Virus genome (UHGV): UHGV-0349822
Strand: one strand, 5' to 3'
Source: a virus
Length of the DNA: 37,380 nt
Position 1 is the first letter of the stretch. Each line of letters starts with the position of its first letter. A program made the position numbers and the translations under genes. This document shows positions 1-25,722 of the stretch, piece after piece. Under the pieces are notes generated by a model, which saw nothing but the letters and a program-made list of their open reading frames with translations, had not been told where the DNA came from and did no database searches.

Positions 1-185
1 TGCCAGCATCCTTTTTGTATCGGACGTAAACGGGCCAGCATTGAAAGAATGCATATTTTATTTAATAGCTCCCGTTCGTGTTTTCTCTTGTTAATGGCAT
101 CTTCAGTAAATACAGGGTTACTGATAGTGACACCAATTTCAAAACAACCTTCAGACGTATTAACGTTTGGTAATAACGTTTCCAT
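1..185 (-). CDS. hypothetical early-left protein, N-terminal part only (gene runs off the window start)
   Basis: Reverse-strand ATG at 185-183 preceded by GAGGA Shine-Dalgarno; frame stays open to position 1 (METLLPNVNTSEGCFEIGVTISNPVF...). Absent from the ORF track because there is no stop in the window. Confidence 0.4.
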   Translation of the reverse strand, partial: METLLPNVNTSEGCFEIGVTISNPVFTEDAINKRKHERELLNKICILSMLARLRPIQKGCW

Positions 186-717
186 TATCGCGTCCTCAAC
201 AATGAATTTTGTGATGCGGTGCCTGGTGCCTCCAGGTGACGTTAACCAGTTAACAATTAACGCCGGATACAGAGAATCCACCCATAACACTGTTTTTGGT
301 TTTAACTGTTCCGCGTGCGCTCAGCCGCATTCACCACATCACAAAATTCACTTTAAAAAGGGCGGCAGAGCAGTCACGGAGTAAAACTGATACCGCCAAA
401 CGTCACCAGAAAATTGATAACAGAGGGCGTTGCAGCGGGGTTGTCACTTAAGCGTATGGTCAACCTGACAACCCGGTGTCCTCAATGGGGGAAGGAATAA
501 CCCCGCCATACTTACCGCCGCGCCATTTCGCGGATTGCCACAACCGGAAGCGCACGGTCGACGAAAATTTAACGACAGGCTATCTATGAACCAGCTACCT
601 CGCTGTGCGCTTTCGCGTTATGGTCTGACTTTTCAGGGAAATATCCTTTCAGTAAACTGTCAGTGCCGGATGCTCACCCGTGTCCGGCGCACGCACTCCA
701 CCTCACCTGTGAATAAA

Positions 718-1104
718 TTAATGATTAATTGATATTTTGTTGTTTGATTCAACTTTCCCATCGGATGTGTGATGCTTTAAATCACAGGAATTAATACTGC
801 TTGCTGTAAAATGATTTTCAAGGGGAGCTATTCGAATCCCTTTCTTTTTCATTAACAAGCCAAATCCTTTATTAATGATGTCCATTAATTCCAGAAAGTA
901 TTTTTCATGTAAATCCTGGTTATCAGAGAGCTGCTTCTCTTCGTACAGCCCGATAAAGGCTCGGCGTACGTTACCGGATATATTGTCGATGGTTTCTTTT
1001 TCTACGGTACTCAGGTCAAGAGTCGCCAGTTGAGAGCGAACCACATTCGATGCCATTTCCTGGAATGGTACTGGTAAATCTTTAAATTCCATCGTCAACC
1101 TCAT
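718..1104 (-). CDS. hypothetical protein (128 aa), second gene of leftward early operon
   Basis: ORF in track; start overlaps the stop of the upstream gene (TGATG), indicating translational coupling. AT-rich, N/K/I-rich composition. Confidence 0.5.
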   Translation of the reverse strand: MRLTMEFKDLPVPFQEMASNVVRSQLATLDLSTVEKETIDNISGNVRRAFIGLYEEKQLSDNQDLHEKYFLELMDIINKGFGLLMKKKGIRIAPLENHFTASSINSCDLKHHTSDGKVESNNKISINH

Positions 1105-1349
1105 CAGTCAGTGTTTCTGGTTAACCAGCGACGCGCGCCAGCTTCAGTTTTAAACGTTTTGCTTCTGGTATACGTCATCGCGGTAAACGTACCGTCCTGG
1201 TTGGGGAACACGCCACATACCAGAGATTCGCTGTTGCCAAGATCGATAGTATCCATGCTGACCTCATTTCCCCTTAACGCCGGGGTAGCGGAACAAAAAC
1301 CTGCTGCATAGTTATTAAAGTTGAACCCTGCCGTCATGTTCTTACGCAT
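1104..1349 (-). CDS. hypothetical protein (81 aa), first gene of leftward early operon (sits at the N position but has no arginine-rich motif)
   Basis: ORF in track, immediately downstream of the left operator cluster and transcribed away from the repressor gene. Confidence 0.5.
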   Translation of the reverse strand: MRKNMTAGFNFNNYAAGFCSATPALRGNEVSMDTIDLGNSESLVCGVFPNQDGTFTAMTYTRSKTFKTEAGARRWLTRNTD

Positions 1350-1441
1350 CGGGCTGGCTACTTAACCCCTGACCACTGCCTGGTAACTCGAGGTATTGCC
1401 CTGTATTGTGTGGGACGGGATGGGTTGGTATGGGAAAACTA

Positions 1442-1480
1442 TAGGAAATGCCTAATTACTTGTCAATAGGCTATGCCTAA
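1442..1480. promoter_or_regulatory. left operator cluster (OL-like) with repressor-binding palindromes
   Basis: ATAGGCTATGCCTAA at 1466-1480 is the exact reverse complement of TTAGGCATAGCCTAT at 2105-2119 on the other side of the repressor gene; a TTAGGC/GCCTAA half-site family. Confidence 0.45.
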
Positions 1481-1574
1481 TAATTTGGGCGCGACCTAAT
1501 AGGTGATGGTTTGTGGGAGAGGTAGTAGGAGTTAACTAACGGGAACTAGGAATTTCCCGTCGGACCATATAAGT

Positions 1575-2051
1575 TTAAGTTCCTGTCTTGGTGATGTTCT
1601 GGCTTTTCCGTTTTGATTCTTGATTTTTCAGATAGTTAGCTACCTTCATTTCCATTGCGGCAATGTAGGCGCGAACGTCATGATCAACCCAACTAGGCTC
1701 CGTAGCATTTCCAGATAAGAGGAAAGCCACAATTGCTCTTTTTTCATCAGAGGCGGCTTGATAAAGGCTGTTTATGTCTAAAAGTTCACTTTTTGTATCT
1801 GAAGTGGATGGGGTTGGTATGGGGTATTCGTTAAGCCCCCAATGCTCTGGACCAACCACATCAGAAAAGAAACGCCATAGTTCTGGAAGTTTGTCTTTAC
1901 TTATCGAACCTTTCTTAATCCAGTCATGGATTGATGGTGGTTGGACTTTGAAATGACGTGCGATTTCCGCCTTTGATTTGACGGCTCCTGATGCAATTTT
2001 TTTGTTAATGGCCTGCTCAATCGCTCGGCCTAAGTCTTTACCACTAAGCAT
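1575..2051 (-). CDS. prophage repressor, helix-turn-helix (cI-like; RacR-like by size and context)
   Basis: 158 aa; N-terminal HTH-like segment (SKAEIARHFKVQPPSIHDWIKKG); divergent from a Cro-like gene and flanked by operator palindromes. Confidence 0.75.
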   Translation of the reverse strand: MLSGKDLGRAIEQAINKKIASGAVKSKAEIARHFKVQPPSIHDWIKKGSISKDKLPELWRFFSDVVGPEHWGLNEYPIPTPSTSDTKSELLDINSLYQAASDEKRAIVAFLLSGNATEPSWVDHDVRAYIAAMEMKVANYLKNQESKRKSQNITKTGT

Positions 2052-2077
2052 TGCTTAATAGTCTCCTATGCGCATCG

Positions 2078-2150
2078 CGTTAGGCAATCCCTACTCTCGA
2101 TGTATTAGGCATAGCCTATTGACAATTGCATTAGGCTAAGCCTAATATTG
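2078..2150. promoter_or_regulatory. right operator/promoter region (OR-like) between divergent repressor and cro-like genes
   Basis: Palindromes TTAGGCATAGCCTAT (2105-2119) and TTAGGCTAAGCCTAA (2131-2145) containing TTGACA-like hexamers; divergent gene arrangement. Confidence 0.5.
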
Positions 2151-2175: not shown

Positions 2176-2499
2176 ATGAAAAAAGATAACTATTCATTCA
2201 AACGAGCTTGTGCTGTTGTCGGTGGGCAATCAGCAATGGCTAGGCTTTTAGGTGTATCTCCTCCAAGCGTAAATCAATGGATCAAAGGTGTACGTCAGTT
2301 GCCTGCTGAGAGATGTCCTGCGATTGAACGAGCAACAAAAGGTGGTGTCCTGTGTGAAGAACTTCGTCCTGATGTTGATTGGACATACTTACGACGCTCG
2401 TCATGTTATTCGCAGAATATGTCGATGAAGCAACCAAATGACGAAAACGATCATACCCGAAGCATCAAGAGGCAAATGATTCATGAAAATCAAACATGA
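2176..2499 (+). CDS. Cro/YdaS-like HTH regulator
   Basis: ORF in track (start taken at ATG 2176); HTH segment QSAMARLLGVSPPSVNQWIKG; first rightward gene from OR. Confidence 0.6.
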   Translation: MKKDNYSFKRACAVVGGQSAMARLLGVSPPSVNQWIKGVRQLPAERCPAIERATKGGVLCEELRPDVDWTYLRRSSCYSQNMSMKQPNDENDHTRSIKRQMIHENQT

Positions 2500-2908
2500 G
2501 CACATCCGCATGGCGATGAATGCTTGGGCATACCCTGATGGTGAGAAAGTTCCTGCAGCTGAAATAGCCCGGACTTATTTCGAACTGGGGATGACGTTCC
2601 CTGAACTGTACGACGACAGCCATCCGGAAGCCCTGGCCCGTAATACACAGAAAATTTTCCGTTGGCTGGATAAAGACACCCCTGATGCTGTTGAAAAAAT
2701 TCAGGCTCTGTTACCGGCGATCGAAAAGGCAATGCCGCCTCTGCTGGTGGCCCGTATGCGCAGTCACAGCTCTGAGTATTACCGGGAGATTGTCGAACGG
2801 CGGGATCGGCTGGTGAAGGATGTCGACGATTTTGTTGCGTCAGCGGTTGTTTTGTATGACCAGATGAATCGCGGCGGCCCGGCAGGGAATGCTGTGGTGA
2901 TGCACTAA
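2483..2908 (+). CDS. YdaT/CII-like regulatory protein
   Basis: 141 aa starting MKIKHEHI..., as remembered for the Rac prophage YdaT family; overlaps the upstream gene stop. Confidence 0.55.
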   Translation: MKIKHEHIRMAMNAWAYPDGEKVPAAEIARTYFELGMTFPELYDDSHPEALARNTQKIFRWLDKDTPDAVEKIQALLPAIEKAMPPLLVARMRSHSSEYYREIVERRDRLVKDVDDFVASAVVLYDQMNRGGPAGNAVVMH

Positions 2909-2930
2909 AAGCACGGTGTTCGGGGGTTTT

Positions 2931-3893
2931 ATGAGCAGCAAGCTTCATGGTCTTGTCTGGGAAGGGTGCGCCTTCACCGGCATGATCTTATCCAGGGTGG
3001 CGGTTATGGCCCGTCTTGCAGACTACAGCAATGACGAGGGCGTGTCATGGCCTGCCATTGAAACTATCCGGCGTCAGATCGGTGCAAGAAGTGAATCCAC
3101 AGTGAAATCGGCTATTGCAGAACTGGCGAAAGAGGGCTGGCTGACGAAGGAAGAGCGTAAGGTCGGTGGGCGTAATGTAAGCAATATCTATCGACTTAAT
3201 GTGGAAAAACTCGAAGCAGCTGCGGCGGCGGCGCGTGAGTCATATAAACCGAAAAGAAAAATTAGCCCGGCAAAAAATGACCCGTTAACAGTTGACCCGT
3301 CAAATATTGACCCCTCAACGGTTGACCCGTCAAATTTTGATGGATCAACTGTTGATAAAAAACTGCCGATTAGGGGGGCGATGATTGACCCCGATCCGTC
3401 AGTATTAAAACCTGATCCGTCAGATAAAAGATCTTCTTGTCCGGACGCTTCGCAACCGGACCCGCAGACGGCTGAACAGGATTTTTTAACCCGACACCCT
3501 GACGCGGTTGTGTTCAGTGCGAAAAAACGCCAGTGGGGAAGTCAGGAAGATTTGGTGTGCGCACAGTGGATCTGGGGACGAATCGTGAGTCTTTACGAGC
3601 AGGCGGCCAGCTATGATGGCGAGATCACTAGACCGAAAGAACCCAACTGGACAGCATGGGCCAATGACGTTCGCACAATGCGGATGCTGGATGGCAGAAC
3701 TCACAGACAAATTTGTGAAATGTTTGGGCGTCTCCAGCGGGATTCGTTCTGGGTAAAAAACATCATGAGTCCGGCAAAACTCCGGGAAAAATGGGATGAA
3801 CTGGTTATCCGCCTGGGGCGTTCGCCTGCGCAGCGTTGCGTGAATCACATTTCTGAACCGGACACTGAAATTCCGCCGGGCTTCAGGGGGTAA
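2931..3893 (+). CDS. replication initiator (lambda O-like N-terminal DNA-binding domain; linker encodes origin iterons)
   Basis: ORF in track; start chosen at ATG 2931 after a GGGGG Shine-Dalgarno; 5-aa periodic peptide (DPLTV DPSNI DPSTV DPSNF DGSTV) coincides with a 15-bp DNA repeat array. Confidence 0.7.
   Translation: MSSKLHGLVWEGCAFTGMILSRVAVMARLADYSNDEGVSWPAIETIRRQIGARSESTVKSAIAELAKEGWLTKEERKVGGRNVSNIYRLNVEKLEAAAAAARESYKPKRKISPAKNDPLTVDPSNIDPSTVDPSNFDGSTVDKKLPIRGAMIDPDPSVLKPDPSDKRSSCPDASQPDPQTAEQDFLTRHPDAVVFSAKKRQWGSQEDLVCAQWIWGRIVSLYEQAASYDGEITRPKEPNWTAWANDVRTMRMLDGRTHRQICEMFGRLQRDSFWVKNIMSPAKLREKWDELVIRLGRSPAQRCVNHISEPDTEIPPGFRG
3276..3425. repeat. origin-of-replication iteron array inside the initiator gene
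   Basis: Tandem 15-bp units, with GTTGACCCGTCAAAT exact at 3291-3305 and 3321-3335 plus variants (ATTGACCCCTCAACG, TGATCCGTCAG), followed by an AT-rich stretch at 3421-3437. Confidence 0.6.
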
Positions 3894-5046: not shown

Positions 5047-5215
5047 TTTTGGTTCAACTAAATACAACGTCAGTTTTGAAGAATGGCATGAACTGTTAAT
5101 GGACTATGCAGAGTTACGTGGTGGCAGTGCTGCTGATGCTGAAGCATGGCGTGATGATTATGAAGCAGGAAAAACTCCGGTCGAAGCATATTGTGATGAG
5201 TGGGGCGATGAATGA
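5039..5215 (+). CDS. small acidic protein (58 aa)
   Basis: ATG 5039 overlaps the upstream stop; translation MADFGSTKYNVSFEEWHELLMDYAELRGGSAADAEAWRDDYEAGKTPVEAYCDEWGDE; stop TGA at 5213-5215 overlaps the next ATG. Below the ORF-track length cutoff. Confidence 0.4.
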   Translation: MADFGSTKYNVSFEEWHELLMDYAELRGGSAADAEAWRDDYEAGKTPVEAYCDEWGDE

Positions 5216-5479
5216 GCGAGGTTAATTATCAGGAAGGGCATGAAACGGCGGGGCAAGCAAAAACAGTGGCATGGCGATATCGCTACGTGAAAAAAAAGGC
5301 GTTACGGACTTTCAGGGGAAGTAGTGGTCTGGTGACTGGAAATATGTACCGAAAAAAGAGGATTGTAACGACAGGCCGAACTATGAAATTCAGGCCTTAT
5401 TCACTGCCCCGCCAGTCCCGGTTACATCAGAAGAACTGGTTAAAGCTGTGCACTTTTATGAACAACTAAAACGCGAAAA
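5212..5479 (+). pseudogene. early gene of unknown function, interrupted by IS2 (3' remainder at 6816-6867) and also split across two frames
   Basis: Two overlapping frames (5212 frame and the frame of ...SGDWKYVPKKEDCNDRPNYEIQALF...VHFYEQLKREN) run into the IS2 end at 5480. Removing IS2 plus one target-duplication copy restores ...LKRENPPASGNLITDSQIRQ*. Confidence 0.4.
5475..5479. repeat. IS2 target-site duplication (GAAAA), copy 1
   Basis: GAAAA directly abuts the IS2 terminus at 5480; identical pentamer at 6811-6815. Confidence 0.8.
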
Positions 5480-5490
5480 TGGATTTGCCC

Positions 5491-6396
5491 CTATATTTCC
5501 AGACACCTGTTATCACTTAACCCATTACTGGCCTGCTGCCGCAGATATTCCCGTGGCGAGCGATAACCCAGTGCACTATGCGGATGCCATTCGTTATAAT
5601 GCTCGAACGCCTCTGCAAGGTTCTTTGCTGCCGTTAACCCGTCTGGTTTAGGCATGATACTGATGTAGTCACGCTTTATCGTTTTCACGAAGCTCTCTGC
5701 TATGCCGTTACTCTCCGGACTCCGCACCGCCGTGTTCTTCGGTTCAAGCCCCAACATCCGGGCAAACTGCCGTGTTTCATTAGCCCGGTAGCATGAACCA
5801 TTATCCGTCAGCCACTCTACTGGAGACGCCGGAAGCTCGTTGCCGAAGCGGCGTTCCACCGCTCCCAGCATGACGTCCTGTACTGTTTCACTGTCGAAGC
5901 CGCCCGTAGTGACTGCCCAGTGCAGTGCCTCACGGTCACAGCAGTCCAGCGCGAACGTGACTCGCAGTTTTTCTCCGTTATCACAGCGGAACTCGAACCC
6001 GTCAGAGCACCATCGTTGATTGCTTTCTTTCACGGCCACTTTGCCAGTATGTGCCCGTTTCGATGGCGGTACAGCGGTTTTTCGCTCAAGCAACAGCGCA
6101 TTCTGTCGCATGATCCGGTAAACACGTTTGGCATTGATCGCAGGCATACCATCAAGTTCGGCCTGTCTGCGAAGCAGCGCCCATACCCGACGATAACCAT
6201 ACGTGGGCAGCTCTCCGATAACATGGTGTATACGGAGAAGCACATCCGTATCATCTGAGTGACGGCTGCGGCGACCATCTTTCCAGTCATCGGTTCGTCT
6301 GAGAATTACGTGCAACTGCGCACGCGACACCCGGAGACAACGGCTGACTAAGCTTACTCCCCATCCCCGGGCAATAAGGGCGCGTGCGCTATCCAC
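5491..6396 (-). CDS. insD: IS2 transposase OrfB (InsD), DDE domain
   Basis: 301-aa ORF in track; recognised as the IS2 OrfB sequence. Confidence 0.9.
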
Positions 6397-6719
6397 TTTT
6401 TTGCACGCCCGTATTCAACGGCTTCTTTAAGGAGTTCATTTTCCATCGTTTTTTTGCCGAGCAGGCGCTGGAGTTCTTTAATCTGCTTCATGGCAGCAGC
6501 AAGTTCAGAGGCAGGAACGACCTGCTCTCCTGCGGCCACAGCAGTAAGACTTCCCTCCTGGTATTGCTTGCGCCAGAGAAATAACTGGCTGGCTGCCACA
6601 CCGTGTTGCCGGGCAACAAGGGAGACCGTCATTCCCGGTTCAAAACTCTGCTGAACAATAGCGATCTTTTCCTGTGTAGTACGCCGTCTGCGTTTCTCCG
6701 GTCCTAAGACATCAATCAT
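6354..6719 (-). CDS. insC: IS2 OrfA (InsC), HTH DNA-binding transposase component
   Basis: Track ORF 6354-6764 trimmed to the [13 protein letters not shown]... start (121 aa); overlaps insD as in the IS2 OrfA/OrfB frameshift arrangement. Confidence 0.9.
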
Positions 6720-7214: not shown

Positions 7215-7473
7215 ATACAGCGAACGCCATTGGTTTAGTTGGATATTTACTGTGCCGGACAAAAACGGTTTGCGGGGAAATCTTAGTTAAGTAGAATGAC
7301 TGCGGGTGCTTGAGGCTATCTGTCTCAGGCATGAACACCAAAAGGCAGATAGAGAAAAGCCCCAGTTAACATTACGCGTCCTGCAAGACGCTTAACATTA
7401 ATCTGAGGCCATATCTATGCTCTACACACGTAGGTTAGCCTCTTACGTGCCGAAAGGCAAGGAGAAGCAGGCT

Positions 7474-7629
7474 ATGAAGCAGCAAAAGGCGATGCTAATC
7501 GCCCTGATCGTCATCTGTTTAACCGTCATAGTGACGGCACTGGTAACGAGGAAAGACCTCTGCGAGGTACGAATCCGAACCGGCCAGACGGAGGTCGCTG
7601 TCTTCACAGCTTACGAACCTGAGGAGTAA
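7474..7629 (+). CDS. hok: Hok/Gef-family membrane toxin (51 aa)
   Basis: MKQQKAMLIALIVICLTVIVTALVTRKDLCEVRIRTGQTEVAVFTAYEPEE shows the Hok signature (TM helix, conserved C...EVR...EVA.F.AYE); AAGGAGAAG Shine-Dalgarno; in-frame upstream ATG at 7417. Confidence 0.8.
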   Translation: MKQQKAMLIALIVICLTVIVTALVTRKDLCEVRIRTGQTEVAVFTAYEPEE

Positions 7630-7696
7630 GAGACCAGGCGGGGGAGAATCCCTCGCCACCTCTGATGTGTCAGGCATCCTCAACGCACCCGCACTT

Positions 7697-7723
7697 AACC
7701 CGCTTCGGCGGGTTTTGTTTTTT
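7697..7723 (+). terminator. intrinsic terminator downstream of hok
   Basis: AACCCGC-TTCG-GCGGGTT hairpin followed by TTGTTTTTT. Confidence 0.55.
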
Positions 7724-9137: not shown

Positions 9138-9497
9138 ATGCTCATAGATTTGGTTTTACCTTACCCGCCGACGGTGAACACTTACTGGCGACGCCGTGGC
9201 AGCACATATTTTGTATCAAAAGTCGGTGAGCGTTATCGCCGTGATGTGGCGCTTATTGTTCGCCAGCAGCAACTGAAATTAAACCTGTCCGGAAGGCCGG
9301 CAATAGAAATTATTGCAGAGCCACCGGATAAGCGCCGTCGTGACCTGGACAATATCCTGAAGGCACCACTGGATGTACTGACGCATGCGGGGCTGCTCAT
9401 AGACGACGAGCAGTTTGATGAAATTAATATTGTGCGCGGTCAGCTTGTTCCTGGTGGGCGGTTGGGGATAAAAATCACAGAACTGGAGTATGCATGA
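9138..9497 (+). CDS. rusA: Holliday-junction resolvase RusA
   Basis: 119 aa; RusA-like motifs (YPPTVNTYW...RRRDLDN...GGRLGIKITE) comparable to E. coli RusA. Confidence 0.85.
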   Translation: MLIDLVLPYPPTVNTYWRRRGSTYFVSKVGERYRRDVALIVRQQQLKLNLSGRPAIEIIAEPPDKRRRDLDNILKAPLDVLTHAGLLIDDEQFDEINIVRGQLVPGGRLGIKITELEYA

Positions 9498-10183
9498 ATA
9501 ACCAGTATTTACAGTTTGTTCGTGAGCAACTCATGATTGCCACCGCCGATTTGAGTGGATCAACAAAAGGGCAGCTTGAGGCCTGGCAGGAGAATGCCAT
9601 GTTTGATACAGGGCGTTACAGGCGTAAAAAAATCCGGTACCGCGATGAAGTGACTGGAAAAATGATAACGCGGGATAATCCACCAATCCCGGGAAAGCAA
9701 TCGCTGGCGAAGGGGGCGTCAATTCCTCTCGTCAGTCCGGTTGAGTTTTTGACATCATCGTGGCGGCGGGCTGTTCTGTCTCTTGAAGAACATCATAAAG
9801 CCTGGTTGTTGTGGTGTTACAGCGGGAGTATTTGTTGGGAATATCAGATCGCGATAACGCAGTGGGTGTGGAATGAATTTAAAACCCGGTACGGCACCAG
9901 AAAAATTGCAGGGAAAACGCAGGAGCGCGTGAAGAAGTTGATCTGGCTGGCGGCACAGGATGTCAGAGGATGGATTACCGGGTGTGAGGTCTACCAGAGA
10001 CAGGAGCTTGCCAGACTGTGTGGAGTTAAGCCTGATAACTGGAGCCATAATTATGCGAACTACTGGCGTGAGATGTGCGATATTTTTAAGAGTCTCGATA
10101 GAGAATCTGTGATTTGCACCGTGAAAATAAGAGCGCAACAAAAAGCGATTTTTTCACGACGAGATATTGCAAAAGTCAATTAA
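9494..10183 (+). CDS. putative late-gene antiterminator (Q-like)
   Basis: 229 aa; ATGA overlap with rusA; followed by a promoter-like segment and a short hairpin with a T8 run (tR'-like), then the late-gene block. Position-based call. Confidence 0.45.
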   Translation: MNNQYLQFVREQLMIATADLSGSTKGQLEAWQENAMFDTGRYRRKKIRYRDEVTGKMITRDNPPIPGKQSLAKGASIPLVSPVEFLTSSWRRAVLSLEEHHKAWLLWCYSGSICWEYQIAITQWVWNEFKTRYGTRKIAGKTQERVKKLIWLAAQDVRGWITGCEVYQRQELARLCGVKPDNWSHNYANYWREMCDIFKSLDRESVICTVKIRAQQKAIFSRRDIAKVN

Positions 10184-12560: not shown

Positions 12561-12951
12561 ATACATATCTGGATTATCACCGGTTACGGTAAAAAGTGAT
12601 TGCTTACTGTTTTTGTGAATGGCATTGCAGCAGCCGGATAATGTCAGTGCTGGCTGACGGTGTGCTGGTGGCGGGTGTGGTGGTTGCTGCTTTCCCGTTG
12701 CTGAAAAAGAAAACGCCAGACTGTTAGCCGGGTATCAGTTAGCGGGAGAAATTTTTAAATACTTCACAATTCAGGCGGTTGACTGTTGTCTGGTTTGCGG
12801 GGAGTTTGTTAAAAGAAACTGGCATGGTGAATCCCCCTGTGCGGAGGGGCAATCAGCGAGTAGGTATATGGGATAATCGCGGATTCAGGTGCTGGTACTG
12901 AATTCACCGGGAGGCACCCGGCACCATGCAATGGCACATAGCGCCACTCTC

Positions 12952-12980
12952 CAGCCCCTCTCCGGAGGGGCTGTTTATAT
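12952..12980 (+). terminator. intrinsic terminator
   Basis: 9-bp stem CAGCCCCTC/GAGGGGCTG with TCCG loop, followed by TTTATATTGATTTT. Confidence 0.45.
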
Positions 12981-13007
12981 TGATTTTGTCAGATGTGAGT
13001 AAACTCC

Positions 13008-13343
13008 TTATGGACTTTGTTGTTTTAGCCCATAAGGACATATTTGCAGAGTGCAACGGTTATTAAAGCATTCATTCAATACGTTATCTGTATTTGTAGG
13101 GCATTCCTGGCTGTTTTTGATTAAATTCCAGAATGTTTTATTGAATGGTACTACGTTGTAAATGGTTACAGGCAGCACTTTGTTATTGAGCATGATGCCT
13201 GTGTGAGTCAGTGTAAATATACTTTCAGGAGGTAAGAAAGCATCCGATTGATACCAGATTATTAATTTTATTTTACTCCATATGACTGAAAAAGATATTC
13301 CGCATGATGGCTGGATAACTGTATCAATCACAATCCACTTCAT
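13008..13343 (-). CDS. hypothetical cargo protein (111 aa), antisense to late transcription
   Basis: ORF in track; AT-rich; convergent with ORF 12204-12560. Confidence 0.3.
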
Positions 13344-17601: not shown

Positions 17602-18222
17602 ATGAAAGATCAAGATGTTAGGTTCGCGGTGCATCATAAGCTTTTGAAAGAATCGCATTTAGATCCAGACTGCCTTGTGGTCGATGAATTTTCCATATCC
17701 CTTGGCGCCAGTAGAGCAGACATTGCTGTAATAAATGGTGTTATACACGGGTACGAGCTCAAAAGTGAATATGACTCTTTGGAGCGTTTGCCTCTTCAAA
17801 TCAAGCATTATTCTTCTGTAATGGACAAGGTTACTCTTGTCGTAGCTGAGAAACATCTTGAGGGAGCATTAAAGTTAATCCCAGGTTGGTGGGGCGTTAA
17901 AACGGTTTCTGTTGGGCCAAAAGGCGCCATTCTTATAAAGCACATGCGTGGAGAAAAGCTTAATCGAAACCATGACACATTGATGCTCGCTCAATTGCTT
18001 TGGAAAGATGAATGTATCGACGTACTTGAACGATGGGGCTATTCCAAAGGAATCAAAAGCAAGCCCCGATTTGAGTTATGGAATATTATTGCGGAAAATA
18101 TTCCAATAGCGAATCTCAGGCTTGAAGTCAGAACAGCCTTAAAGAAACGCGTAGGCTGGAAAGTTAAGGCTTGGCAGGCTGAGTCTGCGCCAACCAATAA
18201 AGCTGTTTCACGACTAACGTAA
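17602..18222 (+). CDS. cargo protein A (206 aa) with PD-(D/E)xK-like motif (putative restriction-endonuclease-fold nuclease)
   Basis: AGGAGAAG Shine-Dalgarno; motif E29...D40-x11-E52-L-K54 (VVDEF...RADIAVINGVIHGYELK); AT-rich, with several ATA/AGA/AGG codons. Confidence 0.6.
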   Translation: MKDQDVRFAVHHKLLKESHLDPDCLVVDEFSISLGASRADIAVINGVIHGYELKSEYDSLERLPLQIKHYSSVMDKVTLVVAEKHLEGALKLIPGWWGVKTVSVGPKGAILIKHMRGEKLNRNHDTLMLAQLLWKDECIDVLERWGYSKGIKSKPRFELWNIIAENIPIANLRLEVRTALKKRVGWKVKAWQAESAPTNKAVSRLT

Positions 18223-19231
18223 TATGGTGCGTATGTGCAACTTTACGCCATTCTTTAGAGCCGCCAGATTTGTTAGCGCCTAATGATCTTTGGTAAATGT
18301 AATCATCCCCCCAACTAAATTTGGAACCAAAGACTTGATACTCTGGCGAACTAACAAGGGTAGTACATAAGTTTTTAGTTTGGCCCCATCCATTTCCTTT
18401 AACTGCGGTACCTTTTACAAAGATCCATGAGGTATCGTTCGAATATCTCACTGAGACATACTGAGACATGAAGCGTGGGTCTACGCTCGTAATGGTAGAG
18501 CTAGCGGTGGGATAATCACTAAAACTTGGCGTTCTTCCATTGCTAAAATTCTGTACTACGTGCATCCAAAGATCGTATTCATGGCGCGGAATATGATGAA
18601 CTTGATGTTGCGGTATCCCTGCCTGTGATGCTGGGTATGCGGTTGAAGATAAAATCAAGTTTCTCCACGGAGCTTGGCCTGATAATGTGTTGACCATGCT
18701 TAATGCTTGTTGTTTTAAACTATCAGTTGCGTTTTGAATATCTCCAAAATCAATGATTACATCAATTAAACTAGGATGAATATTTAAGTGGTTAACCAGA
18801 CTTGTGAATTGGTGCCATGTCTGGGGGGTGATAGATATAGCGAGCCCATTGATTAAGTTGCGTTGAACAGCATGTATATAGTTTGTTGAATATGCGGGAG
18901 AAACAACAGGGATAATTTCCTTACCATTTACTCTAGCATCTTGGATACACATATCTAGAGGATGATGGCGGCTCGAACCATGTTTATCTAAATATTTAAC
19001 ATCCAGCAAAACAGGACGATTGGCTTTCCAGGATGCCGCAAGGTTAATACCGAAGTCAGATAAGTAAGAACTCAAACTCTTCTTGTAGCATTCGTTTTCA
19101 TAATCCCAGTCTATGTCTGGAATGGTAATGATCGGAGTAAAACCAGAGAGCGTAGTTTGATCTAAAAGCATCAGAGATTCATATTCAGCAGGCTTCCATT
19201 TCAGCTGTGGATAATATTGATGTTGACTCAT
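18164..19231 (-). CDS. cargo protein B (355 aa), unknown function, convergent partner of protein A
   Basis: ORF in track with AAGGAG Shine-Dalgarno 7 nt upstream of ATG; AT-rich; 3' end overlaps protein A by 59 bp. Confidence 0.6.
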   Translation of the reverse strand: MSQHQYYPQLKWKPAEYESLMLLDQTTLSGFTPIITIPDIDWDYENECYKKSLSSYLSDFGINLAASWKANRPVLLDVKYLDKHGSSRHHPLDMCIQDARVNGKEIIPVVSPAYSTNYIHAVQRNLINGLAISITPQTWHQFTSLVNHLNIHPSLIDVIIDFGDIQNATDSLKQQALSMVNTLSGQAPWRNLILSSTAYPASQAGIPQHQVHHIPRHEYDLWMHVVQNFSNGRTPSFSDYPTASSTITSVDPRFMSQYVSVRYSNDTSWIFVKGTAVKGNGWGQTKNLCTTLVSSPEYQVFGSKFSWGDDYIYQRSLGANKSGGSKEWRKVAHTHHITLVVKQLYWLAQTQPAKP

Positions 19232-22757: not shown

Positions 22758-24252
22758 TCTTTCACACATTATTGCAGCAGCATTCAATGAACCGCTGCTT
22801 CTGGAGCCCGCCTATGCGCGGGTTTTCTTTTGCGCGCTGGGGCGCGAGATGGGGGCAGCAAGTCTTTCGGTACCGCAACAGCAGGTACAGCTTGATGCTC
22901 CCGGGATGCTGGCTGAAACGGACGAGTACATGGCCGGAGGTAAACGACCGGCCCGTGTTTACCGGGTGGTGAACGGTATTGCGGTACTGCCGGTGACCGG
23001 CACGCTGGTGCACCGGCTGGGGGGGATGCGGCCATTTTCCGGAATGACTGGCTATGACGGCATTGTCGCCTGTCTTCAGCAGGCAATGGCAGATAGCCAG
23101 GTGCGGGGCATACTGCTGGACATTGACAGTCCGGGCGGGCAGGCCGCCGGCGCGTTTGACTGCGCTGACATGATTTACCGCCTCCGGCAGCAGAAGCCGG
23201 TCTGGGCACTGTGTAATGACACGGCCTGTTCTGCGGCCATGCTGCTGGCGTCGGCCTGCTCCCGACGGCTGGTTACCCAGACATCCCGTATCGGTTCCAT
23301 TGGCGTGATGATGAGCCATGTCAGCTATGCCGGTCATCTGGCGCAGGCCGGTGTGGATATCACGCTGATTTACTCAGGGGCGCACAAGGTGGATGGCAAT
23401 CAGTTTGAAGCGTTGCCGGCAGAGGTTCGCCAGGACATGCAGCAGCGGATTGATGCGGCGCGCCGGATGTTTGCCGAAAAAGTGGCGATGTTTACCGGTC
23501 TGTCTATTGATGCAGTCACGGGAACAGAGGCCGCTGTTTTTGAAGGTCAGTCCGGCATTGAGGCCGGGCTGGCGGATGAATTAATCAATGCGTCGGATGC
23601 CATCAGTGTGATGGCCACGGCGCTGAACAGTAATGTCAGAGGAGGCACTATGCCGCAATTAACTGCAACGGAAGCCGCCGTGCAGGAGAACCAGCGAGTG
23701 ATGGGGATCCTGACATGCCAGGAAGCGAAAGGACGTGAACAGCTTGCCACGATGCTGGCAGGGCAACAGGGCATGAGCGTTGAACAGGCCCGGGCGATTC
23801 TGGCCGCGGCGGCACCGCAGCAGCCGGTGGCATCCGCGCAGAGTGAAGCCGATCGCATTATGGCGTGTGAAGAAGCGAACGGTCGTGAACAACTGGCGGC
23901 AACGCTGGCGGCGATGCCGGAGATGACGGTGGAAAAAGCCCGCCCGATCCTGGCGGCTGCACCACTGGCGGATGCCGGGCCCTCACTTCGTGATCAGATC
24001 ATGGCCCTGGATGAGGCAAAAGGGGCAGAAGCGCAGGCTGAAAAACTGGCGGCCTGCCCGGGAATGACCGTGGAGAGCGCCCGGGCTGTGCTGGCTGCGG
24101 GATCAGGTAAGGCAGAACCGGTCTCTGCATCCACAACCGCCCTGTTTGAACATTTCATGGCGAACCATTCACCGGCTGCGGTCCAGGGGGGCGTGTCACA
24201 GGCGTCAGAAGACGGTGATGCGGACGTGAAAATGCTCATGGCCATGCCATGA
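22747..24252 (+). CDS. C: head maturation protease / scaffold gpC (S49 family)
   Basis: 501 aa; GTG start; matches lambda gpC (AFNEPLLLEPAYARVFF, GIAVLPVTGTLV, VWALCND, TLIYSGAHKVDGN). Confidence 0.85.
   Translation: MRRNLSHIIAAAFNEPLLLEPAYARVFFCALGREMGAASLSVPQQQVQLDAPGMLAETDEYMAGGKRPARVYRVVNGIAVLPVTGTLVHRLGGMRPFSGMTGYDGIVACLQQAMADSQVRGILLDIDSPGGQAAGAFDCADMIYRLRQQKPVWALCNDTACSAAMLLASACSRRLVTQTSRIGSIGVMMSHVSYAGHLAQAGVDITLIYSGAHKVDGNQFEALPAEVRQDMQQRIDAARRMFAEKVAMFTGLSIDAVTGTEAAVFEGQSGIEAGLADELINASDAISVMATALNSNVRGGTMPQLTATEAAVQENQRVMGILTCQEAKGREQLATMLAGQQGMSVEQARAILAAAAPQQPVASAQSEADRIMACEEANGREQLAATLAAMPEMTVEKARPILAAAPLADAGPSLRDQIMALDEAKGAEAQAEKLAACPGMTVESARAVLAAGSGKAEPVSASTTALFEHFMANHSPAAVQGGVSQASEDGDADVKMLMAMP
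23690..24110 (+). repeat. three tandem in-frame copies of a roughly 45-aa module in the C-terminal scaffold region of gpC
   Basis: RVMGILTCQEAKGREQLATMLAGQQGMSVEQARAILAAA / RIMACEEANGREQLAATLAAMPEMTVEKARPILAAA / QIMALDEAKGAEAQAEKLAACPGMTVESARAVLAAG; lambda C is remembered as having one copy. Confidence 0.5.
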
Positions 24253-24288
24253 AGTCAGTGCTGAACATCAATACGAGGTTTTAACAAT

Positions 24289-24636
24289 ATGGTGACGAAA
24301 ACCATCACTGAACAGCGTGCGGAAGTACGTATTTTTGCCGGTAATGATCCGGCTCACACCGCCACAGGCAGCAGCGGGATTTCCTCGGCAACACCGGCAC
24401 TGACACCCCTGATGCTGGATGGGGCCACCGGGAAACTGGTGGTCTGGGACGGACAGAAAGCCGGTAGTGCGGTTGGCATACTGGTACTGCCGCTTGAAGG
24501 CACAGAGGCGGTGCTGACCTATTACAAGTCGGGGACCTTTGCGACGGAGGCAATCCGCTGGCCTGAAAGTGTGGATGAACACAAAAAGGCCAACGCCTTT
24601 ACCGGCAGTGCCCTGAGTCACGCGGCGCTGCCGTAA
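24289..24636 (+). CDS. D: head decoration protein gpD
   Basis: 115 aa; DPAHTATG...TPLMLDG...YKSGTF matches lambda gpD. Confidence 0.85.
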   Translation: MVTKTITEQRAEVRIFAGNDPAHTATGSSGISSATPALTPLMLDGATGKLVVWDGQKAGSAVGILVLPLEGTEAVLTYYKSGTFATEAIRWPESVDEHKKANAFTGSALSHAALP

Positions 24637-24693
24637 CACGTTATCAGGCCACCGCGTTGGCCTGACTGATTTCTTAATGAAAGGAACTGATTT

Positions 24694-25722
24694 ATGGGAT
24701 TGTTTACGACCCGCCAGTTACTCGGTTATACCGAACAAAAAGTTAAATTCCGTGCGCTGTTTCTGGAGCTGTTTTTCCGCCGTACGGTGAATTTCCACAC
24801 CGAAGAGGTGATGCTGGACAAAATTACCGGAAAAACGCCGGTGGCGGCCTATGTCTCCCCGATCGTTGAAGGAAAAGTGCTTCGCCATCGCGGTGGTGAA
24901 ACCCGCGTGTTACGTCCGGGCTACGTCAAGCCCAAACACGAATTTAATTACCAGCAGGCGGTTGAGCGCCTTCCTGGTGAAGATCCGGCTCAGCTGAACG
25001 ACCCGGCCTACCGTCGTCTGCGTATCATTACCGATAACCTCAAACAGGAAGAGCACGCCATTGTCCAGGTGGAAGAAATGCAGGCGGTGAATGCCGTGCT
25101 GTATGGCAAATACACCATGGAAGGGGAACAGTTTGACACGGTCGAGGTGGATTTCGGACGCTCTGAAGGAAATAACATTGAGCAGGCCGACGGTAAAAAA
25201 TGGTCTGAGCAGGACCGTGATACGTTTGATCCGACGCATGATATTGACCTTTACTGCGATCAGGCCAGCGGTCTTGTGAATATTGCCATTATGGACGGTA
25301 CGGTCTGGCGTCTGCTGAATGGCTTTAAGCTGTTCCGCGAAAAACTGGATACCCGTCGCGGCTCAAATTCACAACTCGAAACGGCAGTGAAAGACCTGGG
25401 AGCGGTGGTGTCTTTCAAAGGGTATTACGGTGATCTGGCCATTGTGGTGGCGAAAACGTCTTATGTGGCAGACGACGGTACCGAAAAACGTTATCTGCCG
25501 GTGGGCACACTGGTCCTGGGGAATACGGCAGCAGAGGGCATTCGTTGCTATGGTGCCATTCAGGATGCGCAGGCGTTGTCCGAAGGTGTGGTGGCCTCTT
25601 CCCGTTATCCGAAACACTGGCTGACTGTGGGCGATCCGGCCCGTGAATTCACCATGACGCAGTCCGCACCGCTGATGGTGCTGCCGGATCCGGATGAGTT
25701 TGTGGTGGTGCAGGTGAAATAA
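24694..25722 (+). CDS. E: major capsid protein gpE
   Basis: 342 aa; closely parallels lambda gpE (LDTRRGSNS.LETAVKDLG, GDPAREFTM.QSAPLM). Confidence 0.9.
   Translation: MGLFTTRQLLGYTEQKVKFRALFLELFFRRTVNFHTEEVMLDKITGKTPVAAYVSPIVEGKVLRHRGGETRVLRPGYVKPKHEFNYQQAVERLPGEDPAQLNDPAYRRLRIITDNLKQEEHAIVQVEEMQAVNAVLYGKYTMEGEQFDTVEVDFGRSEGNNIEQADGKKWSEQDRDTFDPTHDIDLYCDQASGLVNIAIMDGTVWRLLNGFKLFREKLDTRRGSNSQLETAVKDLGAVVSFKGYYGDLAIVVAKTSYVADDGTEKRYLPVGTLVLGNTAAEGIRCYGAIQDAQALSEGVVASSRYPKHWLTVGDPAREFTMTQSAPLMVLPDPDEFVVVQVK

What the first reader, a model, noticed from the sequence alone, without database searches (positions are those of the whole stretch)
718..1480. Operator palindromes flank the repressor on both sides; leftward operon starts with two coupled small genes rather than an N-like protein
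An identical 15-bp operator (TTAGGCATAGCCTAT) occurs in opposite orientation at 1466-1480 and 2105-2119, giving a compact OL-cI-OR layout. The first leftward gene (81 aa) has no arginine-rich motif as in N-type antiterminators and is translationally coupled (TGATG) to a 128-aa AT-rich gene. Early antitermination, if any, must work differently, and the pair could be an exclusion or accessory function expressed early.
Basis: seen in the sequence. Interest (0 to 1): 0.4.

Follow-up and report, generated by a model that had tools for sequence, protein, structure and literature searches.

The report
RacR-controlled dicBF-type early-left operon start
This is the left operator/promoter of a Rac-type prophage repressor switch driving a known kind of operon (small genes, then the DicF RNA and DicB cell-division inhibitor), so it is an ordinary mosaic of two well-studied E. 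coli prophage modules, not a new antitermination system.

Summary
The operator observation is real and understated. A 23-bp block (operator plus -35 TTGACA) is repeated exactly, inverted, at 1460-1482 and 2103-2125. Both sides of the repressor carry further copies of the published RacR operator (T/A)TAGGC-n3-GCCTA(T/A). The repressor is RacR (92% identical to K-12). The neighbours are YdaS (Cro-like) and YdaT (CII-like).

The leftward operon is a dicBF-type operon: a ~175-nt leader, a DUF1391 gene (ydfA/ydaF homologue), a 124/128-aa protein of unknown function, a spacer 98% identical to Qin, DicF sRNA (360-411) and dicB (1-185). The same 2.2 kb is 100% identical and annotated in many E. coli genomes.

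The "81-aa" gene model is probably wrong. The DUF1391 domain starts at the internal ATG (1256), which has a good Shine-Dalgarno sequence. The upstream extension is frameshifted, absent or unconserved in relatives. The TGATG junction is conserved and may be a real start.

No N-like protein, boxA, put-like or covarying RNA structure was found, and nothing shows that antitermination is needed.

One modest new lead: DUF1391 also occurs inside large DarA_N/ArdC-N polyvalent proteins. This hints at an early counter-defence role.

The parts
1..185 (-). dicB (cell-division inhibitor), cut by the window start; distal gene of the leftward operon
   Evidence: PGAP annotation of the identical record. The full protein in L001 is 55/62 identical to K-12 DicB.
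360..411 (-). DicF sRNA
   Evidence: Rfam RF00039, 76.7 bits (gathering score 48), full length 1-52. 52/52 identical to K-12 dicF.
412..717 (-). non-coding spacer upstream of DicF (the precursor-processing region in Qin)
   Evidence: Window 190-711 is 98.3% identical over 522 bp to the K-12 Qin ydfC-dicF-dicB interval. RNase III/E processing in Qin is described in PMC10448788.
718..1104 (-). second gene, 'p124': 124 aa from the ATG at 1092 (PGAP) or 128 aa from the ATG at 1104 that overlaps the upstream stop (TGATG). Conserved helical N-terminal ~55 aa, variable AT-rich C-terminus, function unknown.
   Evidence: phrog_6937, E 1.8e-76; all four PHROG profile matches begin at residue 5. 223 homologues, all hypothetical, Escherichia/Salmonella. 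AlphaFold2 pLDDT 57, three helices, no PDB fold match. Junction conserved in 74 junction sequences from the IMG/VR loci, with 3 of 3 variable sites synonymous in the MRLT frame. No NCBIfam or PADLOC hit.
1104..1256 (-). DUF1391 gene (ydfA/ydaF homologue), 50 aa, first gene of the operon
   Evidence: Pfam PF07151, 93-95 bits. PGAP CDS. SD GAGG lies 5 nt before the ATG at 1256. 43/50 identical to K-12 YdfA and 41/50 to YdaF. AlphaFold2 pLDDT 80.5, beta-beta-beta-alpha.
1257..1431 (-). ~175-nt 5' leader of the PL transcript. C-rich and G-poor in its first 35 nt. Contains a conserved ATG (1337) that opens a uORF or extension of variable length.
   Evidence: Same leader in K-12 Rac upstream of ydaG. 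Joined just downstream of the predicted PL start to at least 8 different immunity regions in IMG/VR loci. Not more stable than shuffles, z = +1.44. 0 compensatory pairs. Divergence 6.2%, between codon positions 1+2 (3.0%) and position 3 (9.5%) of ydfA.
1438..1466 (-). PL promoter (TTGACA-17-TATAGT); predicted start about 1431
   Evidence: 11/12 match; identical arrangement in K-12 Rac.
1441..1499 (.). OL: RacR operators OL1 1441-1455 (over the -10), OL2 1466-1480 (abutting the -35) and weak OL3 1485-1499
   Evidence: Consensus (T/A)TAGGC-n3-GCCTA(T/A) from PMC9638921. OL2 is identical and OL1 is one base different in K-12 Rac.
1575..2051 (-). racR repressor gene (158 aa)
   Evidence: NCBIfam equivalog NF049929, 246.8 bits (cut-off 200). 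145/158 identical to K-12 RacR.
2044..2148 (.). OR region: operators 2131-2145 (over the PR -10), 2105-2119, 2080-2094 and 2044-2058 (over the racR ATG); PR at 2119-2148 (+)
   Evidence: O1-O3 footprinted or assigned in K-12 (PMC9638921).
2176..2908 (+). ydaS-like cro (2176-2499) and ydaT-like cII (2483-2908); the two genes overlap, leaving no room for a nutR/tR1 interval
   Evidence: Pfam YdaS_toxin 103.9 bits and YdaT_toxin 42.6 bits. phrog_163 CII-like.

Best explanation
Region 718-1480 is the left operator/promoter (OL/PL) of a RacR-type lambdoid immunity switch plus the promoter-proximal part of a dicBF-type early-left operon. The prophage is a mosaic integrated at ompW in E. coli.

In the lysogen, RacR binds the (T/A)TAGGC-n3-GCCTA(T/A) palindromes over the -10 (OL1) and next to the -35 (OL2) of PL. 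It binds equivalent sites at PR. Both early promoters are thereby shut.

When RacR is lost, PL produces one long transcript, in this order:
- a ~175-nt leader;
- a 50-aa DUF1391 protein (YdfA/YdaF homologue);
- a 124/128-aa helical protein of unknown function, which here replaces ydfB-ydfC;
- a spacer;
- DicF sRNA, cut out by RNase III and RNase E as in Qin;
- DicB and YdfD;
- then the exonuclease, xis and int genes.

There is no N protein. The operon appears to be read through without a dedicated antiterminator, as in Qin.

Shown here: sequence identities, operator and promoter positions, gene content and family memberships. Inferred: RacR occupancy of OL, the transcript structure, and the accessory roles of the two small proteins.
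For: - Identity. The first 2200 bp are 100% identical to annotated chromosomes such as ST648, where they read racR, DUF1391, hypothetical, dicB. 165 genomes cover at least 80% of the query.
- Repressor. RacR equivalog hit at 246.8 bits; 92% identical to K-12 RacR.
- Operators. Enriched and clustered on both sides of racR. They match the published footprint-derived consensus (PMC9638921).
- K-12 Rac has the same OL2, -35, OL1, -10 and leader upstream of ydaG-ydaF.
- Silencing racR in K-12 derepresses ydaG, kilR, recE, xis and int (bioRxiv 10.64898/2026.09.06.749655).
- Downstream genes. DicF at 76.7 bits. DicB 89% and YdfD 94% identical to K-12; spacer 98.3% identical to Qin.
- Architecture. 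Repressor - YdfA - p124 - DicF - DicB - YdfD is the commonest layout among 80 IMG/VR loci: 67 have p124; DicA-like repressor in 52, RacR in 6.
- The Qin dicBF polycistron, its processing and its repression are documented (PMC10448788).
- No N signature. No Pfam N hit, no Arg-rich small ORF near PL or PR and no boxA in the window. ydaS and ydaT overlap, so there is no nutR slot.
Against: - RacR binding to OL has not been shown experimentally, here or in the papers I read; they treat only the racR-ydaS intergenic region.
- Transcription from PL through DicF's own terminator to dicB, xis and int is inferred from Qin, not measured.
- The functions of DUF1391 and p124 are unknown.
- The leader is conserved across heteroimmune phages and is unexplained.
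- ydfB and ydfC, and the DicA repressor, which define the canonical Qin dicBF operon, are absent. This is a variant, not the same operon.
Confidence: 0.85

Rival explanations
1. One reading: the two small genes at the head of the leftward operon replace N. They, or the leader, provide a new kind of early antitermination.
For: - The DUF1391 gene sits where N sits in lambda, directly after PL/OL.
- The ~175-nt leader is conserved from about +10 in prophages with at least 8 different immunity regions, as nutL is among lambdoid phages.
- The leader precedes different first genes: ydfA, ydaG, or none in phage pPE4.
- Functional phages such as Tritos have cI followed directly by the ydfA-like gene, with no N.
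Against: - No Arg-rich motif and no boxA anywhere in the window.
- No Rfam hit in the leader.
- The leader folds no better than shuffles, z = +1.44.
- 0 compensatory pairs among 28 leaders.
- No sequence similarity to any lambda or HK022 record; only 15 phage records match, none of them those phages.
- Terminator-like sites along the operon are at chance level.
- Qin-type operons have a different short leader and still make ydfABC-dicF-dicB-ydfD transcripts.
Confidence: 0.06
2. One reading: an 81-aa (or 77-aa) N-terminally extended DUF1391 protein, translationally coupled through TGATG to a 128-aa protein.
For: - The extension is open and in frame in 43 of 50 long-leader sequences; some phage records annotate 77-83 aa proteins.
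- The TGATG junction is present in all 74 junction sequences from the IMG/VR loci.
- The three variable sites between the two ATGs (AGG/AGA, TTG/CTG, TTG/TTA) are all synonymous in the MRLT frame. My own estimate is p about 0.05-0.09.
Against: - The ATG at 1349 is GAG in nearly all relatives.
- 7 of 50 long-leader sequences, and K-12 Rac, shift frame and stop at the TAA of GCGTTAAGGGG.
- The amino-acid sequence of the extension is not conserved where the nucleotides are (FNFNNYAAGFC against TLCITAQQVFS).
- Short-leader (Qin-type) loci lack the extension altogether.
- The Pfam domain starts at residue 33.
- A good SD precedes the ATG at 1256 and none precedes 1349 or 1337.
- For p124, all PHROG profiles and most database proteins start at MEFKDLP, and GAGG lies 6 nt before that ATG.
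Confidence: 0.15
3. The leader is itself a regulatory device. One version: its C-rich 5' end is a Rho-loading site whose use depends on translation of the conserved uORF. Another: a CCCC/GGGG hairpin masks the Shine-Dalgarno sequence. Either would gate expression of the toxic dicBF genes after derepression.
For: - The first 35 nt have 15 C and 4 G.
- The ATGACGG start is conserved in all long leaders, including the 76%-identical pPE4 leader, although uORF length varies from 6 aa to fusion with ydfA.
- The block GTTCCGCYACCC(C)GGCGTTAAGGGGA is invariant in both leader classes and ends in the SD.
- Leader divergence (6.2%) is below that of ydfA third codon positions (9.5%).
Against: - No covariation.
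- No stability signal.
- The conservation is modest and could be recent mosaic exchange.
- No experimental data.
Confidence: 0.15

Closest known systems
Rac prophage immunity region of E. coli K-12 (racR-ydaS-ydaT, with ydaG-ydaF to the left)
   Same: - RacR is 92% identical.
- Same operator consensus and OR layout, including a site over the racR ATG.
- Identical OL2 plus -35, and a near-identical OL1, -10 and ~175-nt leader.
- A DUF1391 gene lies downstream.
   Different: - In Rac a 44-aa ydaG lies between the leader and the DUF1391 gene, and the operon continues with sieB, kilS and kilR rather than p124, DicF and dicB.
- YdaT is only 46/141 identical.
dicBF operon of the Qin prophage (dicA/dicC; ydfA-ydfB-ydfC-dicF-dicB-ydfD)
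   Same: - ydfA-type first gene (86% identical).
- DicF identical; DicB 89% and YdfD 94% identical.
- 522 bp around dicF are 98.3% identical.
- One repressed early promoter drives a polycistron (PMC10448788).
   Different: - The repressor is RacR with its own operators, not DicA.
- The leader is the long Rac type, not the ~65-nt Qin type.
- ydfB and ydfC are replaced by one unrelated 124/128-aa gene.
Lambda PL-nutL-N early-left operon
   Same: Divergent PL/PR flank the repressor, with multiple operators on each side. A cell-division inhibitor (lambda Kil; here DicF/DicB) and recombination, xis and int genes lie downstream.
   Different: No N, no Arg-rich motif, no boxA/boxB, and no cro-cII interval for a nutR. 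RacR lacks a LexA-like cleavage domain: it is 158 aa with only HTH-type hits.
HK022 put (RNA-mediated, factor-independent antitermination)
   Same: An N-less lambdoid arrangement with a conserved transcribed element just downstream of PL.
   Different: No sequence match to any HK022 record. No stable or covarying two-hairpin structure. put is not represented in Rfam as far as the scan shows, so structural membership could not be tested directly.
Polyvalent early-effector proteins of phages and conjugative elements (P1 DarA/DdrB type; ArdC type; Iyer et al. 2017, PMC5512222)
   Same: The DUF1391 domain scores 62-81 bits against Pfam's own model inside large proteins that also carry DarA_N, ddrB-ParB, ArdC-N and DUF3560.
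   Different: Here the domain is a free-standing 50-aa protein expressed from an early promoter, not packaged or transferred as part of a giant protein. The cited paper does not name DUF1391.

Membership tests
RacR-type immunity switch | Repressor is a RacR equivalog | tested here: met
   NF049929, 246.8 bits against a cut-off of 200; 145/158 identical to K-12 RacR.
RacR-type immunity switch | Operators of the form (T/A)TAGGC-n3-GCCTA(T/A) over the divergent promoters | tested here: met
   Sites at 2131-2145, 2105-2119, 2080-2094 and 2044-2058, plus 1441-1455 and 1466-1480. Consensus from PMC9638921.
RacR-type immunity switch | YdaS (Cro-like) and YdaT (CII-like) genes transcribed divergently from racR | tested here: met
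   PF15943 at 103.9 bits and PF06254 at 42.6 bits.
RacR-type immunity switch | RacR physically binds OL and represses PL | not testable with these tools
   Inferred from the identical operator sequence and from derepression of left-arm Rac genes on racR silencing.
dicBF operon (Qin type) | DicF sRNA followed by dicB on the same strand | tested here: met
   RF00039 at 76.7 bits, 360-411(-); dicB at 1-185(-).
dicBF operon (Qin type) | ydfA (DUF1391) as the first gene after the repressed promoter | tested here: met
   PF07151 at 93 bits; 86% identical to YdfA.
dicBF operon (Qin type) | ydfB and ydfC between ydfA and dicF | tested here: not met
   tblastn with YdfB and YdfC finds nothing here. One unrelated 124-aa gene takes their place.
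dicBF operon (Qin type) | DicA repressor and the dicBp promoter with its short leader | tested here: not met
   The repressor is RacR and the leader is the long Rac type.
Lambda N / nut antitermination | Small basic protein with an N-terminal arginine-rich motif, encoded first after PL | tested here: not met
   No Pfam N-family hit. No ORF with 5 or more Arg in its first 25 residues near PL or PR.
Lambda N / nut antitermination | boxA (CGCTCTTA-like) plus a boxB hairpin in the PL and PR leaders | tested here: not met
   No [CT]GCTCTT[TA]A anywhere in the window. No covarying hairpin in the leader. ydaS and ydaT overlap.
HK022 put RNA | Two-stem-loop RNA of ~70 nt downstream of the early promoter, with conserved structure | tested here: inconclusive
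   No sequence match to phage records other than close relatives, no excess stability and no covariation. No put model was available to score.
DUF1391 (PF07151) | Match to the Pfam model above its gathering score | tested here: met
   95.1 bits against 27.3, residues 2-48 of the 50-aa product.

The most novel reading that the evidence does not exclude
The first PL gene encodes a free-standing copy of a small beta-beta-beta-alpha domain (DUF1391). The same domain is embedded in giant DarA_N/DdrB-ParB and ArdC-N/DUF3560 polyvalent proteins of phages and conjugative elements. On this reading YdfA/YdaF is an early counter-defence or host-takeover factor (restriction-alleviation-like). It would be expressed first after derepression, in the slot lambda uses for N and Ral. 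The conserved C-rich leader with its uORF would gate this expression without N.
Probability: 0.2. Interest if true: 0.5.

Novelty: new member of a known kind. Interest (0 to 1): 0.2.

Why it matters
The finding mainly tidies the annotation.
- It shows that RacR has a left operator set (OL) as well as the published right one.
- It shows that RacR-type switches can control a dicBF-type cell-division and phage-exclusion operon.
- It shows that the common "81-aa" calls for DUF1391 genes are over-extended.

The one forward-looking point concerns DUF1391, an uncharacterised family found in most E. coli genomes. It is the first gene of many early-left operons, and it recurs as a module in anti-restriction-type polyvalent proteins. 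That gives a testable hypothesis for its function.

Tried and rejected
- Rfam at gathering and at a permissive E-value on 1-2300: only DicF and a sub-threshold STnc100 hit; nothing in the leader.
- Single-sequence fold of the leader: less stable than 189 of 200 shuffles.
- RNAalifold on 28 long leaders and 16 short leaders: 0 and 1 compensatory pairs. The 76%-identical pPE4 leader gave only small hairpins out of register. No covariance model was built because diversity is too low.
- boxA and Arg-rich-motif scans: negative.
- blastn of the leader against 50,697 phage records: 15 hits, all close relatives; none to lambda or HK022.
- p124: Pfam, NCBIfam, PADLOC and PDB sequence searches were all empty or insignificant. 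The AlphaFold2 model is low-confidence (pLDDT 57) and Foldseek against PDB gives E of 1 or worse.
- DUF1391: Foldseek against PDB and BFVD gave nothing with E below 0.09. Weak resemblances to three-stranded-sheet-plus-helix DNA-binding domains (lambda Int N-domain, AP2/ERF, HNH-associated domains) are only a lead. Pfam at E up to 10 shows no second family.
- A 19-residue HMM match to gpD/SHP head-decoration proteins (E 0.013) was rejected as spurious. It probably explains the "head-DNA stabilization protein D" mis-annotation in some phage records.
- My first guess that pPE4 carries two DicF copies was not upheld by Rfam at gathering score. They are divergent elements in the DicF position.

Full report
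**What the window is**

The first 2200 bases are 100% identical to the chromosomes of many E. coli strains, for example ST648 (NZ_CP008697). 165 genomes cover at least 80% of the stretch.

In that record the element is a lambdoid prophage integrated next to ompW. Going leftward from the repressor it reads: int, xis, a RecE-like exonuclease, ydfD, dicB, a gap, a hypothetical protein, a DUF1391 protein and racR. Then come a YdaS-like HTH gene, a YdaT-family gene, replication genes, Q, lysis genes and lambda-like head and tail genes.

**The observation**

The 15-mer TTAGGCATAGCCTAT is present exactly at 1466-1480 (-) and 2105-2119 (+).
- With up to three mismatches there are six matches in 37 kb against 0.73 expected; no shuffle reaches six. 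Five of them (four sites) lie in two clusters on either side of the repressor gene.
- The exact inverted repeat is in fact 23 bp (1460-1482 / 2103-2125). It includes the -35 hexamer TTGACA of each outward-facing promoter.
- The promoter scan finds exactly these two as the best sites in the region: PL is TTGACA-17-TATAGT (11/12) and PR is TTGACA-18-TAATAT.
- Operator-like palindromes lie at 1441-1455 (over the PL -10), 1466-1480, weakly at 1485-1499, and at 2131-2145 (over the PR -10), 2105-2119, 2080-2094 and 2044-2058 (over the repressor's start codon).

The OL-repressor-OR reading is therefore correct.

**What the switch is**

The repressor is RacR.
- It hits the NCBIfam equivalog at 246.8 bits (cut-off 200).
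- It is 145/158 identical to K-12 RacR.

The rightward genes are YdaS (Cro-like) and YdaT (CII-like).

The operator consensus 5'-(T/A)TAGGC-n3-GCCTA(T/A)-3' was already derived by footprinting and comparison for the racR-ydaS intergenic region of K-12, including a site over the racR ATG (PMC9638921). That paper does not treat the left side.

K-12 Rac carries the same OL2 plus -35, an OL1 differing by one base, the same -10 and a homologous leader downstream of racR. A 2026 preprint reports that silencing racR derepresses ydaG, kilR, recE, xisR and intR. Together these make RacR control of PL very likely, although direct binding to OL remains untested.

**What the leftward operon is**

Rfam finds DicF at 360-411 on the minus strand (76.7 bits, full length). 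It is identical to K-12 dicF. The window begins inside dicB (1-185).
- The 522 bp around dicF are 98.3% identical to Qin.
- DicB is 89% and YdfD 94% identical to the K-12 proteins.
- The first gene is a DUF1391 protein, 86% identical to Qin YdfA and 82% to Rac YdaF.

In Qin this operon is a single repressed polycistron from which DicF is excised by RNase III and RNase E. Species reaching dicB-ydfD are seen there without any N-like factor (PMC10448788).

Two things differ from Qin. The repressor and leader are of the Rac type, and ydfB-ydfC are replaced by one unrelated 124/128-aa gene. This allele is common. Among the 80 IMG/VR loci with the closest DUF1391 genes:
- 67 carry the 124-aa gene;
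- the commonest order is repressor - YdfA - p124 - DicF - DicB - YdfD;
- the repressor is DicA-like in 52 loci and RacR in 6.

**Gene models**

The 81-aa ORF is very probably over-extended.
- Pfam DUF1391 covers residues 33-79 only.
- PGAP aa from the ATG at 1256, which is preceded by GAGG at the right distance.
- The ATG at 1349 is GAG in nearly all relatives.
- Of 50 long-leader sequences examined, 7 shift frame and end in a 20-aa uORF at the TAA of GCGTTAAGGGG, as does K-12 Rac.
- Where the nucleotides are similar the peptide is not (FNFNNYAAGFC against TLCITAQQVFS).
- The 31 Qin-type short-leader sequences have no extension at all.

For the second gene, the PHROG profiles and most database proteins start at MEFKDLP (ATG at 1092, with GAGG six bases upstream). 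However, the TGATG overlap is present in all 74 junction sequences from the IMG/VR loci, and the three variable positions between the two ATGs are all synonymous in the MRLT frame. The coupled start at 1104 therefore stays plausible. The 3' half of this gene is 31% GC against 52% for the window.

**The leader**

From the predicted start near 1431 to the ATG at 1256 is about 175 nt. The same leader is found in K-12 Rac. In IMG/VR loci it is joined, within about ten bases of the start site, to at least eight different operator/promoter regions, each with its own palindrome.

In phage pPE4 a 76%-identical leader is followed directly by the pre-DicF-type spacer and two divergent elements in the DicF position, with no ydfA or p124. 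This suggests that the small genes are a cassette inserted into a non-coding backbone.

I found no sign that the leader is a nut- or put-like element.
- Rfam finds nothing there even at a permissive threshold.
- It folds less well than most shuffles, z = +1.44.
- RNAalifold on 28 leaders gives no compensatory pair.
- The window has no boxA-like sequence and no Arg-rich small ORF near either early promoter.
- blastn against 50,697 phage records finds only 15 close relatives.

Its divergence (6.2%) lies between codon positions 1+2 (3.0%) and position 3 (9.5%) of ydfA, so constraint is at most moderate. Its C-rich 5' end, conserved uORF start and invariant CCCC...GGGG/SD block leave room for a Rho- or translation-based control. 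That is speculation.

Terminator-like sites along the operon are no more frequent than in shuffles.

**The two proteins**

p124:
- It has 223 detectable relatives, all unnamed and limited to Escherichia and Salmonella.
- It has a conserved ~55-residue N-terminal part and interchangeable C-termini.
- The AlphaFold2 model is a low-confidence three-helix protein with a disordered tail, and it matches nothing.
- The defence and naming libraries are silent on it.

DUF1391:
- It models with fair confidence (pLDDT 80.5; core above 90) as a three-stranded sheet followed by a helix.
- Foldseek gives no significant match in PDB or BFVD.
- A full HMMER scan of 1.84 billion cluster representatives finds 332 relatives.
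- Ten of the larger ones, 440-935 aa, were scanned against Pfam: five also carry DarA_N and two carry ArdC-N plus DUF3560. A further DarA_N + DUF1391 protein (897 aa) and a 1572-aa protein with DarA_N, DUF1391 and ddrB-ParB turned up among their cluster members. The 1572-aa protein sits on an 85-kb contig of otherwise Pfam-less genes.
- These are the architectures of the "polyvalent" early-effector proteins of phages and conjugative elements (PMC5512222), though that paper does not name this domain.

By association, a free-standing DUF1391 at the head of an early operon may be a counter-defence or host-takeover module. It is an inference, not a demonstration.

**Verdict**

The sequence facts are real. 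The interpretation that something must replace N is not supported. The locus is a mosaic of two well-known E. coli prophage modules: Rac immunity plus its leader, and Qin-type dicBF. It is identical to annotated genomes.

The minor additions are:
- an explicit OL for RacR;
- the corrected DUF1391 gene model;
- the p124 allele of the dicBF operon;
- the DUF1391-polyvalent-protein link.

Interest is low (0.2). Novelty: a new member of a known kind.

Noticed in passing
window 360-411 (-) and 1-185 (-): DicF sRNA (identical to K-12) and the start of dicB lie just left of the finding.
   Followed up: yes
window 153-362 (-) and 12793-12982 (+): Full STnc100 match (132 bits) downstream of Q and the tRNA genes, ending in a strong hairpin at 12952-12973. 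A sub-threshold STnc100-like hit (38.7 bits, gathering score 47) lies between DicF and dicB.
   Followed up: no
window 5212-6719 and 23858-25364: An IS3-family element (5491-6719) is inserted in the early-right region next to a pseudogene. The S49 head-maturation protease is annotated as frameshifted. The prophage is probably defective.
   Followed up: no
window 7304-7714: A hokD/sok type I toxin-antitoxin locus (sok 117 bits) with a strong intrinsic terminator (7697-7714) lies between PR and the Q gene (9494-10183). Without N it is unclear how PR transcription would reach Q.
   Followed up: no
window 1539-1560: Hairpin ACGGGAA-N8-TTCCCGT lies 15 nt after the racR stop and has no U tract. K-12 Rac has the same hairpin one base pair shorter. 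It may be a racR transcript end or an insulator before OL.
   Followed up: partly
window 1422-1434 and 1811-1823: The exact 13-mer GGGTTGGTATGGG occurs at the PL start/leader 5' end and again inside racR (linker codons PIPTP). About 22 of 24 surrounding bases are alike. I have no explanation.
   Followed up: no
metagenomic proteins P0306, P0332, P0336, P0340, P0342, P0386, P0388, P0317, P0348; loci L088/L089: The DUF1391 domain is embedded in large proteins with DarA_N, ddrB-ParB, ArdC-N and DUF3560 domains (polyvalent-protein architectures).
   Followed up: partly
L086 (phage vB_Apl-pPE4, PP818812) 2440-3100: The same long leader (76% identical), behind a DicA-like repressor, is followed directly by a pre-DicF-type spacer, two tandem divergent elements in the DicF position (not DicF by Rfam) and kil. 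There is no ydfA or p124. The listed host is Actinobacillus, which is odd for so enterobacterial a sequence.
   Followed up: partly
phage records ON470583, ON470580, ON470614, PV340562: DUF1391 genes are annotated 'head-DNA stabilization protein D'. This is probably propagated from a spurious 19-residue similarity to gpD/SHP (E 0.013).
   Followed up: partly
window 17602-19231 and 13008-13343: A 'sce7726 family' gene and a 'beta family' gene are inserted between the lysis and terminase genes. iraM (anti-adapter) lies downstream of the tRNAs. Both look like moron-type cargo.
   Followed up: no
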